Shown: piece by piece, positions 35,981-49,050 of the stretch
How the letters are laid out: every line of letters starts with the position of its first letter
Position numbering within the stretch: position 1 is the stretch's first letter
Assembly (NCBI GenBank): GCA_010093815.1
Contig: ML996573.1
Reading direction: 5' to 3' (one strand)
DNA: 64,000 nucleotides
DNA from: Pseudovirgaria hyperparasitica
Taxonomy: Eukaryota
Notes under the pieces: model-generated
Database searches by the model: none
Told to the model about the DNA's origin: nothing
Seen by the model: the letters and a program-made list of their open reading frames with translations, nothing else
Made by a program: the position numbers and the translations under genes

Positions 35981-37097
35981 ATGAGGCCGGATCCTGCTGT
36001 GCTGGAAGTTCTATCTCTATCTGAAGGGAATGTGACCGTGGAAGACCATGGTGGTGGTGGTGGCTCTTCCTCCGCGTCAACATCGAAGATTATCTCAAAA
36101 CAAGACGACGGCACTAAGCTGGAATACTTCATGAAAACAGGGTCCGGCAAAGATGCAGAAATAATGTTCCAAGGTCTGCACCGCGACAACGAGCGATCTT
36201 CTAGGTTCCCCGTTGATGCCTTCTAGGTGAACACGCATCCCTCAACGCAATCAACGCCGTGGTCCCGTCTCTGTGCCCTAAATCCCACGGGAGCGGCCCA
36301 TTCTCCTCCGACGCAAATACTTTCTTCCTCGTAACGGATTTCCTGAATCTTTCTGCTCGCAGCAATCTTTCGGCAGACGATGAACCGGCCTCTCTCGCGG
36401 AGAAACTTGCTCAGCTACATACTACCCCGGCGCCCATTCCTGACGGCTACGACAGTCCTATGTTTGGCTTCCCCGTGCCCACATGCTGCGGTGATACTCC
36501 GCAGGACAACACCTTCAACGCCTCCTGGGCTGATTTCTACGCCAACAGCCGGCTGAGGTTCATTCTTGAGCGGGCAGAAAGTGCGAATGGTGTTGATGAC
36601 GAGTTGAGGCGTATGCTCGAGACGGTTGCTTCCATTGTCGTACCACGGCTGATTGGCGACGAGCATTTGAACGGTGGCAGGGGCGTAACTCCAGTCGTTG
36701 TACACGGCGATCTATGGTCGGGTAACGCCGGGAGAGGGAGGATAGGAGACGATGATGTGGTGCAAGAGGTTGTGTATGATCCCTCTGCGTGCTATGCACA
36801 CAGCGAGTATGAATTGGGAATCATGAAGATGTTTGGGGGTTTTGGGGACGTGTTTTTGAGGGAGTATCATAGGGCGTGCGCGAAGACGGAGCCGGTGGGC
36901 GAGTATGAGGATCGGGTAGAGTTGTATGGATTGTAAGTGCAGTTGTGTAGAGATGGAGGACTAGTGTAGAGGAGAGAGCTGATATGTGCAGGTATCATCA
37001 TCTGAACCATTATGCGTTGTTTGGAGGTGGCTATAAGGCTGGGGCAAAGGCGATCATGAAGAGGCTTATTAGGACCTATGTGCATGATAAAGCGTGA
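35981..37097 (+). CDS. Fructosamine/ketosamine-3-kinase family protein
   Basis: YFMKT, MFQGEHASL, FGFPVPTCCG, VVHGDLWSGN, YDPSACYAHSEYELGIM, YHHLNHYALFG. Two introns. Confidence 0.93.
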
Positions 37098-37554
37098 GTG
37101 AACTTCGGCAATAGGAACTAGGTTACCGGAGCTACTGTCGAGTATGCACGAGGCACTGGCGTACTTGTTTAGAGGGTTGTGACTAATTTTATAGGTAGGT
37201 CAGCTTGAAGAGTTTGGTGAAGTCGATACCAGGTGCGCACCGCCTGTCGAAGAAACAGGAATAGCTCCAATACGAAAGGTCTCTGACTGTTTTCATAATA
37301 AAGAGATGACAGGATGCAGTGGGTGTTCGAGTATGAATATATGGTCGACGAAGAGAGATCTTGATGGCTATTGGTATTCAGGAGAGAAGGCTAGACCTCA
37401 ATTATGTCCTGCCGTCAAAATCGGACCCTTGCTCCTCCATATTAACACTGATCCATACAGACGACTAAACATTAATATTTTATTGACTTATAAATCCCAT
37501 GCTCGTACAACTACCACAGCAAACGACATTAAGCCATAAACCAATCACTGATTT

Positions 37555-38943
37555 TCAATCGTGATCCCTCTTTACGACGTCGGTATTGGTGGTATCATCA
37601 TCCTTCCGCTCAAGACGAATTTGCCGGAGTCCCTTATCCAACATGTCGAGCTTCTCGTGAACTTCTGCTAATCCCTGCTGCATGCTCACATCTAGTCCCT
37701 GATGTCCACGTTCCGTACTGCCCTCATAGCTGCTTCTCGTTCTGTCCAGCCCACCATGATGTAAACTCTGAGATCTCTCCAGCCCAGAATAGTGGCTATT
37801 ACCCATCCGTTCCAGGGCTGCATGACGGCTGCTGTTCGCCCTCTCAAACGCTCCATCAACAGTCCGCTGGCCCCTCGTAAACGTCGATTCAAGCGCACTC
37901 TGACTACGCGACAAGCGTTCGTGAATTGCCTGCTGCCCTCTTCCAAGCCCCTCTTGCAACTCCTGCTGCCCGTGATCCGCATGATGGTGCATCTTCTCAT
38001 TAATCCTCTCGATACCCCTATGTACCGCATCTAATCCCCTTGCAAGCCCATGATGCCCTCCCTCAGCCACTTTTTCACCAAACCCCCCTGCCGTACTAGC
38101 TATTGTCCTGTGCGACTCCCCGATCGCCGGTAAAGGCGCGACACGCGCTGTATCTAACCGGCCCGCACGTGTCACAGATGTATAAGAATCCGGCACATTT
38201 GCTTCGACATCGGCGCGCACGTTCTCGTACATCAGCTCTATGATGCGTGCTTCTTCCTCGACAACGAGGGTGCATGTCTCGACGCCGAATTCGCGCTCAC
38301 GTTGCTCGATGTATTCGCGCACTTTGCGCCACTCGGACTCGAAGTATGTGAAGCGGTTGGGCAGTCCGGAGCCCTTGAGGTAGGTCAGGAAGCCGGCAAT
38401 TATGGTGTTCACGGCGCCGAAGAAGGTCACAGCACTGCGGCCGCCACCGGCGGCACCTGTGATAGTTAGTCTACACAGAAGGATGGTCTATGGAGGGACA
38501 GAAAGCATACCAAGGGCGGTCAATGTCGCCGCTACGACAATTTGTAGGCCCAAACATCCGTTGATCGCTATCGAGAAGAACTTGAAAAGCTTCCCGCAGT
38601 TCTTTTCTGCCGAGACCGTTCGTGTGTATATACCCACGTTTGGGGCTTTCCGTTGCAGATATGTAGTATCTGTTAACGTAGACACTGAGTCGATTCCCAC
38701 CAATCTACGGAAATGGGCCAGCCGGTCGTGTGTTCCAACAAATTCATGGACTGCAGATCCGATGGGGGCGGGCGGGCGACTTGTTCCTGCGTAGATCCGT
38801 TGTGGTTGAGAGGGAATGCCTTCAGACTGTGACATGGTCTGGGGAGCATGTGTGTTGTCAGGCGCGTTCGCGAAATTGGCCTTTTCTACATCGCCTTGCA
38901 TGCTTCGCTTGAGCAGAGAAGAGACGAAAGGTATCTTCTTCAT
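37555..38943 (-). CDS. Fungal SLATT (SMODS/SLOG-associating 2TM) domain protein with C-terminal 11-mer repeats
   Basis: GIYTRTV..INGCLGLQIVVAATLTALGAAGGGRSAVTFFGAVNTIIAGFLTYLKGSGLPNR matches my recollection of the fungal SLATT family. Intron 38457-38510. Confidence 0.82.
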
Positions 38944-40230
38944 GATGATCCCGTCGCGTAAAGAGGAACTCCCAACTCCCGGGGCAAAGACACAAAAAAC
39001 CAGTCCGCAGCGCGCTCAGAACAAGAGGGAAACGCTCCAACAAAACTCTCACACGACAGCCCCCCAACGCGCACCTGGAAGTCTCTCGCTTTTGAAGACC
39101 GGAATCCACCCGCAACAATATCAGCGGTAGGATGGTCGATCCCAAGCTAGGCTCCTTGCGATGGCCCGTAGACCAATCATCGAGTGTGATTGTACATGTC
39201 CGCGCGCACCAGCCAGCCACATACTGCATGGGCTTTCAGGATCGTCTTTGCTCGAATCACAGGATTTGCTCTACTTGGAACTGGTGCCGATCATTGTTTA
39301 AAGACGGTGATACGCGGGCGACTTCTGCTTGGCAAACGTATCTCAACTAACGATGTCTTGTATTCTCCCATCACTAATTATGTGCAGGACATGTGAGCCT
39401 TCCACCGGGACAGCTTTTGTGTTGTTCTAGGTATATCTCGGAGCGGAGATTGGGCGGATTGGTCCTTCATGCGGCCCGCGGCCCCGTTGCGGGAGCGTAC
39501 CCTAATCCGGCAATCGAAGAGTGGTGTCTGGAGGCAGTAAACAGTAGTGTGAATTCTCAATAGACTATCGCAAATCGTCCAACCTTTTACCCCAGGGCGC
39601 TGTTTATGTTTCGAGTAGTGCATAGAACCTCCTCGAGATCGTGATTCTACACTATTTGATCATCTATGCCTTCAGACTATACATTATTAGTATGATATTC
39701 TCGCATCAAGTGATAGCGATGGGGCATTCTTTACAGTATTGTGATGATACTACATATCCAAACGCGTCTATTGCAGGCCAGTCCAGAAGTACAGTATCTA
39801 AAAAGCATTGAATTTTCTAGAAAGAAGGGTGAGAATCTCGGGCTAAAGGGCACTAGTCTTCTTCAAGTAGTAATCGACATCCAAGTCAAAAAAGTAAACA
39901 CTGCTTTGTAATCATCGCCCTGCTCCACCAGACACTGGGAACCTATGTATAGGTGTTCAATCGGGGAGACATCACGGTATAGCCGAAAACTGCTAATTTG
40001 AGGAACCCTGAAAGACGCACTAATCACTAGCCAACAACCTCAATGGCCGCCCTTGATCGATGACGTGGGATCGCGATGTCGGATGTGGGGTTGGCTTCAT
40101 TTCTAATCCATGCTTTTTAATATAGCTGTGCCGGCCTTGTCAGAGGTATATATAGTCCACTGGTTGCAACTGATCTTCTGCAATTGTATATGATATCTTC
40201 CTTGCTAAAGCAACAACAATCAGAATCAAA

Positions 40231-45047: not shown

Positions 45048-47119
<2,072 letters not shown>

Positions 47120-47609
47120 GATGAAATGAGATGAGGTATGATATAGGAGTGGAGGAGGGAGAAGATGGAGAGAGGTCAAAAGCAAGCAATTGGAGACTGT
47201 ACAGAGAGAGAATGGAGGATAGGAAGAGGGGAGAAAGAATATGAAGGCTAGGACAGGTAAGCTAAAGGAAATTTTTTGTATACAGATTATGGCGGAGTGG
47301 AAAGGTAAGGCCTTTTGGGGGGAACTGCCGACCGACGTAATGTTGTTTCGGCTGCGGGGCAGAGCACGGACGGCGTAGTCCAAAGCACGCAACCTTGTTA
47401 CTACAGGGGGTCCCGGTCGGGTGGAGTCGGTTTACGAGCACTGCTGCCCGTGCGACGAAGTGGTGAGGGGCTTCGGGGAGACTTTAATCCAACACCAAGT
47501 CTTGATCTATTCACAGCTTCGGGGGCCATGGTCTATATACTATCTCACGACCTCGAATGCCAGCTGTCACAAACAAGCAATTCTCAGCAAACAGGGTACG
47601 TGCGATGAT

Positions 47610-47622
47610 GACAAACGGCAAT
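47610..47622. promoter_or_regulatory. 13-mer GACAAACGGCAAT upstream of MET3, shared with the MET16 upstream region
   Basis: Exact copy at 49235-49247. Confidence 0.5.
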
Positions 47623-48066
47623 GATAACACACCAATGCGTGTCAATCAAAGAGGAAAAGCTTGGTACGATGGTGTGATCGGTCGCACACGAGGCGTGTTC
47701 CAAACTTCCTTTTGGCTGTCCGGCCTGGAATGAGACATACATTCACGGGGTGCGGAGACGCCTCATATACACACAAGGCGATCTTACACAAGATAAGGAT
47801 TGCAGAGATCATAGCGTCTGATGGGCCTTTAGAGGTTGAATGCTGCTTCACTGTGATATCGCGATAACTATGTAATTTTGCCGGCGGCTCTCATCCGAGA
47901 GATTCGCATCCTTCCACTTCTTTTGTATCTTTTTGTCTTCTATCTCTTACGAGATGCTGACCGCTGTATAGTCCCCAGCACTCATAAATGCTCACTGCCG
48001 AACGCCAATATGCTGTGGTATACGCTAAAAATCGCACGAAAGAAATGTACAGACTATGGGAGACTA

Positions 48067-49050
48067 TTACACCGAGATGGAGGTCTGATTGAGCTGCTCG
48101 ATAGTCTGCTCCATGCCTTCTTGTTGTAAAGTTCGCTTACGCTCTTGATCCATGAGAAACTGAGCGTAGCGGGACTTCTTGTTGTGGATGCCACACTCGG
48201 TTTTGTTGCGGCCTTTCCAACGTCCAGAACGCTCGTCCTCACCGGCAGCGACAGGCTGCGTGGAGTGCCAGTCACCGACGCTCTTGTAGCCGCGCTGGAG
48301 AAGTTCATTGGAGGGAACGTCATTTTCCTTGATGTAGGTGTTGACTTGATCAAAGGTCCAATTGGCTAGTGGATTGACCTTGATCATACCGGTGTCGTCA
48401 ATCTCGACAATGTCAAGCTCGCTGCGTTTCCCGCCTTGGGTGCTGCGGCGACCGGTGATGACAGCCTTGACCTGAAGTTCGGCGTAGGAACGTTGGGCAG
48501 GCTCCACTTTGGCCACCCAGTCGTAGAGTTCCTCATTGGACTCCCACAGCTTTTCGCCGTGCTTAGTGGCGAATTCTTCAGCGGTTTCGCAACCTTCAGG
48601 CTTGTAGATGTGCATATGGAACTTCGGATAGGTCTTCCTCACGCGGTTGGCCAGGTCAAGAGTCTCGGAGAAGTGGTGCAAGGTATCGAGGAAGATGAGG
48701 TCAATGCGAGAGCTTAGTGGTCCAGAGATCTTGGACAGCTTATCGAGAATGACGAGGCCTGAAGGTCCAAGAGCGGTGGTTTGGTATAACGATGGCAATG
48801 AGATCAGGCACCATTGCAGGATTTCTGCAACATGTTAGCCCTCGAGTTCGACACGTGATCATGGGGAAAGAGTTTACGCACCATCTGGCGACAATTTGGA
48901 CAACTGCTGGTTGATGTGCTTCAGGTGTGTCTTGGTAAAGAGTACTTCAGGCTGTGGGGAATCGTTTGATTCGCCAGAACCATATCCAGACTCTACATCT
49001 CTCAGTGACGCGGTATCCTTGTCGTCGTAGGTGGTTGAATTGCCCGACAT
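48067..49050 (-). CDS. MET16: PAPS reductase
   Basis: LYQTTALGPSG, IFLDTLHHF, KVEP, TGRRSTQG, GYKSVGDWHST, ERSGRW..KTECGIH. One intron at about 48827-48878. Confidence 0.96.

What the first reader, a model, noticed from the sequence alone, without database searches (positions are those of the whole stretch)
37555..38943. Fungal SLATT membrane effector fused to 13 in-register 11-residue (hendecad) repeats
Seen: after the two-TM SLATT core and helical region, 37648-38076 encodes EKVAEGGHHGL/ARGLDAVHRGI/ERINEKMHHHA/DHGQQELQEGL/GRGQQAIHERL/SRSQSALESTF/TRGQRTVDGAF/ERANSSRHAAL/ERMGNSHYSGL/ERSQSLHHGGL/DRTRSSYEGST/ERGHQGLDVSM/QQGLAEVHEKL with no indels. Arg is at position 2 in 10 of 13 repeats, L/I/F/M is at position 11 in 11 of 13, and the array is His-rich. 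Established: SLATT domains are predicted pore-forming effectors of prokaryotic nucleotide-signalling conflict systems, and 11-mer repeats form lipid-binding amphipathic 3-11 helices (perilipins, synucleins, apolipoproteins, group 3 LEA) or hendecad coiled coils. Inference: a candidate fungal membrane-disrupting or cell-death effector gated by a lipid-, pH/metal- or oligomerisation-sensing tail. I know of no description of this architecture. No nucleotide-generating partner is visible in this window.
Basis: partly seen in the sequence, partly recalled or inferred. Interest (0 to 1): 0.7.

Follow-up and report, generated by a model that had tools for sequence, protein, structure and literature searches.

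The report
Fungal SLATT protein with amphipathic tail
This spliced fungal gene encodes a conserved membrane protein related to bacterial immune membrane effectors, and it carries a tail of 11-residue repeats that most likely binds lipid surfaces; tails with the same period but different sequence occur in many of its fungal relatives.

Summary
This is a two-exon, spliced gene (444 aa) with SLATT_fungal (PF18142, 121.8 bits) and 13 gap-free 11-residue repeats (z 18.9; hydrophobic period 98.0 degrees, a 3-11 helix).

The architecture is not a one-off. Among 150 non-redundant relatives, 22 of 75 long tails have period-11 arrays (at most 4 for other periods). The arrays share period and amphipathy but not sequence, and the 43 named Aspergillus records have none. 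The core is strongly conserved (55-71% identity across classes) and not linked to any signal-making gene. The tail is therefore optional, not a conserved gate, and the His richness is particular to this species.

Best reading: an oligomeric, probably ligand-gated membrane hairpin whose tail folds on lipid surfaces and tunes targeting. Main rival: a hendecad coiled-coil stalk. Boldest reading: a conserved executor of HET/TIR nucleotide signals, like the cADPR-gated bacterial SLATT ThsH. Function is untested, and I found no paper on the fungal family.

The parts
38511..38943 (-). Coding exon 1 (residues 1-144): variable N-terminus, conserved pre-SLATT helix, first membrane helix
38457..38510 (-). 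54-nt spliceosomal intron (GT..AG, with branch-point motif), at the end of the first membrane helix
   Evidence: skipped in contigs of both runs
37555..38456 (-). Coding exon 2 (residues 145-444 and stop)
38878..38892 (-). Short acidic N-terminal motif (D-x-E-K-A type, residues 18-22)
   Evidence: matched in 30 of 109 representatives; shuffle mean 1.8, maximum 6
38620..38733 (-). Conserved extension before the Pfam domain (residues 71-108; R79, G83, R98, N102, G104, Y106 conserved in 93-100% of aligned representatives)
   Evidence: helix 71-82 in the model
38209..38619 (-). SLATT_fungal domain PF18142 (residues 109-227, spans the intron): two hydrophobic helices plus basic/acidic cytoplasmic helices (K172, R179, R191, E195, E198, R199)
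38521..38577 (-). Hydrophobic helix 1 (residues 123-141; Kyte-Doolittle 1.83) with conserved polar N128 and Q134
38377..38433 (-). Hydrophobic helix 2 (residues 153-171; Kyte-Doolittle 1.64) with conserved N161 and T162
38077..38163 (-). Low-confidence, proline-containing linker (residues 243-271)
37648..38076 (-). 13 in-register 11-residue repeats (residues 272-414): weakly hydrophobic, proline-free amphipathic 3-11 helix
38944..39928 (-). Transcribed leader of at least 927 nt, with a 58-nt intron (39677-39734) and 14 upstream ATGs

Best explanation
The gene is the local member of a conserved, low-copy SLATT_fungal lineage of filamentous ascomycetes. Shown: a membrane hairpin of two moderately hydrophobic helices with invariant polar and small residues, flanked by helices with invariant Arg/Lys/Glu/Asn/Tyr. 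Inferred from bacterial SLATT proteins: protomers assemble side by side in a membrane and are switched by a small anionic ligand bound between the cytoplasmic helices, which changes membrane permeability. Shown: the C-terminal tail is optional, and where long it is a proline-free amphipathic helix of about 100 degrees period, often amplified as exact 11-mers whose sequence differs between lineages. Inferred: this tail is unfolded in solution and folds as a 3-11 helix on a lipid surface (bilayer or lipid-droplet monolayer), where many weak contacts add up with length. It would then tune where and how tightly the SLATT protein sits, rather than being the sensor that opens it.
For: Core: PF18142 hit. 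Cross-hits to bacterial SLATT_1 in 7 of 75 members (best E 2.3e-4) and to a PADLOC 2TM effector model in 26 of 75 (best E 1.5e-4). Model-to-model TM 0.64 to a bacterial cluster of which 28% carry SLATT_4 (a lead only). 51 positions are at least 80% conserved in 150 representatives, and core identity is 55-71% to 13 orthologues chosen across classes. Bacterial ThsH systems are activated by cADPR and ThsH is modelled with basic pockets between protomers (10.64898/2025.12.03.692087, passages). Tail: mean moment 0.36, hydrophobic fraction 0.27, aromatic 0.03, charged 0.27, no Pro, close to Plin3 (0.35, 0.37, 0.01, 0.23) and synuclein (0.30, 0.47, 0.02, 0.24) in Table 1 of PMC5889406. 129 of 195 long tails are significantly amphipathic, peaking at 94-102 degrees with none at the heptad value of 103. 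Lag 11 is the strongest pooled lag: mean z 3.3, 121 of 163 at z>=2; N-terminal control 0.13. In 22 strong arrays pooled, Lys/Arg peak beside the non-polar face and Asp/Glu further out. 21 of 75 members give sub-threshold Apolipoprotein hits (best E 1.2e-12). This array matches other tails no better than reversed or column-shuffled controls (10.8 bits against 11.2-18.6). The tail alone models as one extended helix, not a bundle (pTM 0.36).
Against: There are no experimental data. The same 11-mer pattern fits a hendecad coiled coil. This array is not class A: its Arg lies about 147 degrees from the non-polar face. Its net charge is -2 and its hydrophobicity is low (0.09), and in Plin4 a reversed net charge abolished droplet binding. 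All Apolipoprotein hits are below the 90-bit cut-off, and PDB sequence hits are non-significant (E 0.14 or higher) and include ATPase stalk subunits as well as apolipoproteins. No close prokaryotic or viral relative was found, so ligand-pocket residues could not be compared with ThsH.
Confidence: 0.42

Rival explanations
1. The repeats form a hendecad (straight or right-handed) parallel coiled-coil stalk projecting from a SLATT oligomer, acting as a spacer or scaffold like the tail of ZorA.
For: Exact 3-11 period with no indels or prolines. Columns fit a-d-e-h as Leu / small / Gln / Val-Leu-His. Weak hits to ZorA models (E 0.0019 for this protein over residues 221-431; up to 14 of 75 members per model), to Gp58 (5 of 75) and to ATP synthase b and V-ATPase G (E 1.4 or higher). 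That the ZorA tail and these stalks are hendecad-type bundles is recalled, not from a call.
Against: Only one column is consistently large and hydrophobic; the second has His or Arg in 4 of 13 units; Gly is 13%. Large hydrophobics are only 10-23% in 28 strong arrays. Talaromyces-type relatives use 7- and 18-residue units instead (read by eye), which fits any amphipathic helix better than a fixed supercoil. The hits are generic periodic matches.
Confidence: 0.25
2. One reading: a cell-death effector whose His-rich tail is the sensor (pH, metal or lipid) that gates the pore.
For: His sits in columns 7-9, next to the non-polar face; only 9 of 163 tails are as His-rich. No signal-making gene is linked.
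Against: The tail is short in half of the representatives and carries no array in Aspergillus, while the presumed ligand-binding core stays invariant. His enrichment is not shared by the other strong arrays.
Confidence: 0.08
3. The tail is a hydrophilin/LEA-like low-complexity appendage that expands by unequal crossing-over with little selection; only the core matters.
For: Length varies from 0 to over 300 aa. There is no sequence homology between arrays. A 33-nt DNA periodicity is still visible.
Against: Period 11 recurs in separate parts of the core tree: the strong label needs at least 9 changes on well-supported branches. Tails have 1.7% Pro and keep helical amphipathy; drift alone would not favour 33-nt units.
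Confidence: 0.13
4. The core has lost pore function and works as a monotopic hairpin anchor (oleosin- or reticulon-like); together with the 11-mers it coats lipid droplets or shapes membranes.
For: A hairpin with a very short loop plus perilipin-like repeats; housekeeping neighbours (Raptor, fructosamine kinase, GST); slow evolution and a tree that groups by fungal lineage.
Against: Invariant polar residues inside both helices and invariant charged residues outside them exceed what an anchor needs. No SLATT domain is mentioned in the A. oryzae lipid-droplet screen, although that library seems not to include the orthologue.
Confidence: 0.12

Closest known systems
SLATT_fungal (Pfam PF18142; defined by Burroughs et al. 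2015, paper not held, recalled)
   Same: Full-length domain hit, 121.8 bits.
   Different: The Pfam entry covers only the core. The conserved extension at residues 71-108 and the recurrent 11-mer tail lie outside it; I found no paper on either.
ThsH, effector of type VII Thoeris (10.64898/2025.12.03.692087; passages read)
   Same: SLATT membrane protein. The system is activated by cADPR, and ThsH is modelled as an oligomer with basic cytoplasmic pockets; the fungal core has invariant basic residues on its cytoplasmic helices.
   Different: ThsH is encoded beside its TIR enzyme, whereas the fungal gene has no linked TIR/HET gene. No 11-mer tail is mentioned in the passages read. Direct sequence similarity to ThsH was not tested.
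DRT10 / UG17 SLATT effector (10.64898/2026.04.29.721553; passages)
   Same: SLATT protein required for toxicity.
   Different: SLATT_5 family, coupled to a reverse transcriptase and an ncRNA; the activation mechanism is still open.
Perilipin, synuclein and apolipoprotein 11-mer helices (PMC5889406; passages and one section)
   Same: Gap-free 11-mers, 3-11 period, moment about 0.35, few aromatics.
   Different: No Perilipin Pfam hit, no proline-punctuated 22-mers, net charge -2, Arg not at the polar/non-polar interface, and fused to an integral membrane hairpin. An analogue, not a member.
ZorA of Zorya (membrane oligomer with a long helical tail; structure recalled)
   Same: Membrane domain followed by a long periodic helical tail; weak profile hits over the tail.
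   Different: ZorA has a MotA-type core and needs ZorB; the hits are non-specific.

Membership tests
SLATT_fungal PF18142 | Profile match above the gathering cut-off over the full model | tested here: met
   121.8 bits against 26.5; positions 2-121 of 121
SLATT_fungal PF18142 | Two hydrophobic helices joined by a short loop, followed by soluble helices | tested here: met
   Hydropathy 1.83 and 1.64; model helices 105-147, 151-174, 176-201, 210-230, mean pLDDT 91-97 per 10-residue block over 101-230
Nucleotide-gated SLATT effector systems (type VII Thoeris, CBASS-type) | Linked gene for a signal-making enzyme (TIR, nucleotidyltransferase, SLOG) | tested here: not met
   None in 30 long window ORFs. 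Among 135 neighbour ORFs from 23 related loci: one HET gene and one NACHT gene; about 0.7 HET matches are expected by chance over 335 kb at this genome's density
Nucleotide-gated SLATT effector systems (type VII Thoeris, CBASS-type) | Activation by a nucleotide second messenger, with growth arrest or membrane damage | not testable with these tools
   Needs an assay; only conservation of basic residues is shown
Nucleotide-gated SLATT effector systems (type VII Thoeris, CBASS-type) | Homo-oligomeric membrane assembly | tested here: inconclusive
   See Tried and rejected
Perilipins | Perilipin/PAT domain | tested here: not met
   Only three Pfam families match at E<=1: SLATT_fungal, Phasin and Apolipoprotein
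Perilipins | Gap-free 11-mer repeats with a weak 3-11 amphipathic moment | tested here: met
   compared with Table 1 of PMC5889406
Perilipins | Lipid-droplet localisation | not testable with these tools
   No localisation data found
Exchangeable apolipoproteins PF01442 | Profile match above cut-off; proline-punctuated 22-mers; class A charge pattern | tested here: not met
   13.8 bits against 90; no Pro in 143 aa; Arg about 147 degrees from the non-polar face. The pooled family arrays do show basic residues beside the face
Group 3 LEA proteins | LEA family profile match | tested here: not met
   No LEA family among the three Pfam matches at E<=1
Hendecad coiled coils | a-d-e-h core pattern with period 3.67 | tested here: inconclusive
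   Period met (98.0 degrees); one strong and one mixed hydrophobic column, with small or polar d and e

The most novel reading that the evidence does not exclude
[quoted passage not shown] Many lineages would have independently bolted on a perilipin-like 11-mer helix to aim it at particular membranes. This would supply a downstream step for HET domains (77 matches in this genome), whose molecular function a 2023 review calls undeciphered (PMC10197012, passages; SLATT is not mentioned there).
Probability: 0.2. Interest if true: 0.88.

Novelty: new variant of a known kind. Interest (0 to 1): 0.52.

Why it matters
SLATT_fungal is a widespread, strongly conserved but experimentally blank fungal family descended from a class of bacterial immune membrane effectors, one of which is now tied to cADPR. 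That makes a cheap test available: does the fungal core respond to NAD-derived messengers, and so link HET/TIR domains to a membrane step? Separately, the family is a natural experiment in repeated evolution of 11-mer amphipathic helices on a fixed membrane core, with tailed and tail-less orthologues (A. nidulans AN1562 has a short tail) ready to compare. If the tail is only a variable appendage, the finding is a modest annotation.

Tried and rejected
Complex prediction of three copies of residues 100-432: no answer, score 0.00, alignment not used; this is no evidence either way.

Fold searches: full model against the PDB, no match at E<=0.001; wide VIA search, best Z 9.7 to generic helical bundles and BAR domains, below the level that means anything for helical proteins; tail model, no matches. 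A weak or missing match does not show a new fold.

No RNA holder was listed for the locus. The two unlabelled runs turned out to hold spliced contigs.

No relatives were found by pattern scans of prokaryotic genomes or viral contigs, or by tblastn of phages and plasmids. These searches only reach close relatives. The Atlas feature search without PF18142 gave only sub-0.9 leads, mostly unnamed giant-virus clusters.

No synteny: none of 10 window neighbour ORFs matched any of 68 related loci, and no neighbour was shared by more than 3 of 25 long locus groups.

The array has no second copy in the own genome.

Literature: six orthologue locus tags were in no paper. SLATT terms and AN1562 were absent from the 9 readable supplements of the A. 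oryzae septal-pore screen (identifier format checked); its main supplementary PDF was too large to read, and supplements of the bioRxiv lipid-droplet preprint were not available. Burroughs 2015 is not held.

A tail-against-tail phmmer step printed nothing; I did not use it and repeated it with controls.

No Neurospora, Sordaria, Fusarium or Magnaporthe name appeared among the best 120 of 531 hits to a Sordariales query. This is not proof of absence, but real absence would weigh against the novel case.

Earlier scan notes had nothing on this family.

Full report
GENE AND OBSERVATION. The feature is a minus-strand gene with exon 1 at 38943-38511, a 54-nt GT..AG intron and exon 2 at 38456-37555, giving 444 aa. 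It equals database protein P0001, labelled by NCBI as a hypothetical protein of Pseudovirgaria hyperparasitica. Contigs of two runs (one sample, one study, not on record as RNA) skip this intron and the introns of neighbouring genes, cover the whole array without differences, and extend the leader to at least 39928 through a second intron. PF18142 matches residues 109-227 at 121.8 bits. Period 11 has z 18.9 against a best-of-any-period shuffle maximum of 5.1; the hydrophobic Fourier peak is at 98.0 degrees; the whole-array moment of 0.34 exceeds all 2000 shuffles (maximum 0.18).

THE CORE. An AlphaFold2 model (75 sequences) is confident for residues 101-230: helices 105-147, 151-174, 176-201 and 210-230, plus a conserved helix 71-82. 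The two hydrophobic segments are moderate (1.83 and 1.64) and carry nearly invariant polar and small residues. The flanking helices carry R79, R98, N102, Y106, E113, K172, R179, R191, E195, E198 and R199 at 89-100% in 150 representatives. Core identity to 13 orthologues picked across classes is 55-71%. The profile search found 943 clusters at 50% identity, of which 150 were listed and analysed. All named hits displayed (120 rows each, of 302, 531 and 814) are filamentous ascomycetes, and the core tree groups largely by lineage (139 columns, many forks unresolved). The own genome has two further PF18142 loci: an intact, divergent paralogue (44% over 77 aa) without repeats, and a partial copy of that paralogue. 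Links to bacteria are weak but consistent: SLATT_1 in 7 of 75 members, a 2TM effector model in 26 of 75, and a model-level match to a SLATT_4-bearing cluster. No close prokaryotic or viral relative was found.

THE TAIL IS A FAMILY TRAIT, BUT OPTIONAL. In 211 proteins from the first two searches (redundant, rich in Xylariales and Sordariales), 16 tails were under 55 aa. Of the other 195, 129 were significantly amphipathic, peaking at 94-102 degrees and never at 103. Pooled autocorrelation peaks at lag 11 (mean z 3.3; 121 of 163), then 22, 7 and 18; N-terminal regions give 0.13. In the non-redundant set, 149 of 150 had a complete core; 26 tails were under 50 aa, 48 were 50-99, and 75 were 100 or longer. 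Of those 75, 22 reach z>=5 at period 11, against at most 4 for periods 7, 9, 10, 12, 13 and 14. Strong arrays occur in a black-yeast clade around P0011, around P0066, in Xylariales and elsewhere. Of 43 named Aspergillus records, 33 have tails under 77 aa, and none of the 10 longer ones has an array; two of those are acetyltransferase-fused gene models. Talaromyces-type tails use 7- and 18-residue units (read by eye). This array matches 338 other tails no better than reversed or column-shuffled versions of itself. Its nearest cores have tails of under 100 aa, though that branch is long and support is only 88. On the tree the strong label needs at least 9 changes, but it is also clustered more than shuffled labels. 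I infer repeated independent expansion or complete turnover; an ancestral amphipathic tail with losses is not excluded. His richness is particular to this species (8.4% against a median of 4.2%).

WHAT THE TAIL RESEMBLES. Its moment (0.36), aromatic fraction (0.03) and charged fraction (0.27) sit near Plin3 and synuclein; its hydrophobic fraction (0.27) is lower than any helix in Table 1 of PMC5889406. That paper shows such helices bind droplets by length-dependent weak contacts and depend on net positive charge; this array is net -2. Pooled over 22 strong arrays, Lys/Arg peak next to the non-polar face and Asp/Glu further round, as in class A lipid-binding helices, but this protein's own Arg column lies at about 147 degrees. 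Sub-threshold hits go to apolipoproteins (21 of 75), apolipophorin III (9) and phasin (7), but also to Gp58, ZorA tails and ATPase stalks. Alone, the tail models as a single long helix. Conservation of physical pattern without sequence, scarcity of large hydrophobics and interchangeable 7/11/18 periods favour a lipid-surface helix over a coiled coil, but not decisively.

CONTEXT. The window neighbours are housekeeping or metabolic genes: Raptor, fructosamine kinase, GST, Utp3-like, ketopantoate reductase and sulfate-assimilation enzymes (30 long ORFs scanned, short exons not). In 68 related metagenome loci (38 distinct groups, 25 long enough to scan) there is no shared neighbourhood. Of 135 neighbour ORFs from 23 loci, one is a HET gene and one a NACHT protein, as expected by chance (0.7 HET matches). 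The operon-style test for a SLATT conflict system is therefore not met. In a eukaryote an unlinked partner remains possible.

MECHANISM. Most likely (0.42): an oligomeric, ligand-switchable membrane hairpin with an optional lipid-binding 3-11 tail that tunes targeting. The gene structure, domain, periodicity and distribution are shown; oligomer, ligand, lipid binding and cell death are inferred. Rivals: coiled-coil stalk (0.25), near-neutral appendage (0.13), monotopic droplet or membrane coat (0.12), His-tail gate (0.08). An earlier scan note led me to the type VII Thoeris preprint, where SLATT-effector systems arrest growth on cADPR and the effector is modelled as an oligomer with basic pockets (passages). 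With HET domains described as remote TIR relatives of undeciphered function (PMC10197012, passages), this gives the boldest reading (0.2): a conserved executor for HET signals. A shared executor of a common messenger would be expected to be conserved, low-copy and unlinked, as seen here; so would a housekeeping protein.

NOVELTY. Ten full-text searches (listings seen) found no paper describing the fungal family's function or its tail. The library lacks most subscription papers, including the founding 2015 paper, whose content I cite from recall. Papers seen as passages only: PMC7159879, PMC9503650, PMC8502044, the DRT10 preprint and the lipid-droplet preprint.

Noticed in passing
window 38944-39928 (-): The SLATT transcript has a leader of at least 927 nt with its own 58-nt intron and 14 upstream ATGs (uORFs of 1-123 codons), which suggests translational control or a shorter true start.
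   Followed up: partly
L002:1499-2409 (G000:C26): A 97-98% identical partial copy of the C16 SLATT paralogue, interrupted by an element of about 415 nt with 24-nt inverted arms (1829-1852 and 2232-2255) and an apparent 5-bp target duplication; it looks like a captured gene fragment with a MITE insertion.
   Followed up: partly
L001:1075-2145 (-) (G000:C16): An intact second SLATT_fungal subfamily member with a Pro/Ala/Asp/Lys-rich tail and no 11-mer array by eye.
   Followed up: partly
L023:2986-6718; L028:2988-7692: One related locus has a HET-domain gene convergent on the SLATT gene and another has a NACHT gene about 2 kb downstream; the frequency is at chance level.
   Followed up: partly
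window 38878-38892 (-): An acidic D/E-x-E-K/R/E/Q-G/A motif near the N-terminus, often after a short basic amphipathic stretch, in 30 of 109 representatives against a shuffle mean of 1.8; a possible trafficking signal (recalled resemblance).
   Followed up: partly
window 37093-37199: The 3' leader of the convergent fructosamine kinase gene has an alternatively spliced intron (three joints) and its transcript meets the SLATT transcript's 3' end.
   Followed up: no
window 45048-48834: ATP sulfurylase/APS kinase and PAPS reductase genes lie next to each other.
   Followed up: no
P0001 residues 95-240, Atlas: The nearest non-fungal feature neighbours of the core are unnamed giant-virus (Nucleocytoviricota) clusters, scores 0.82-0.85; a lead only.
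   Followed up: no
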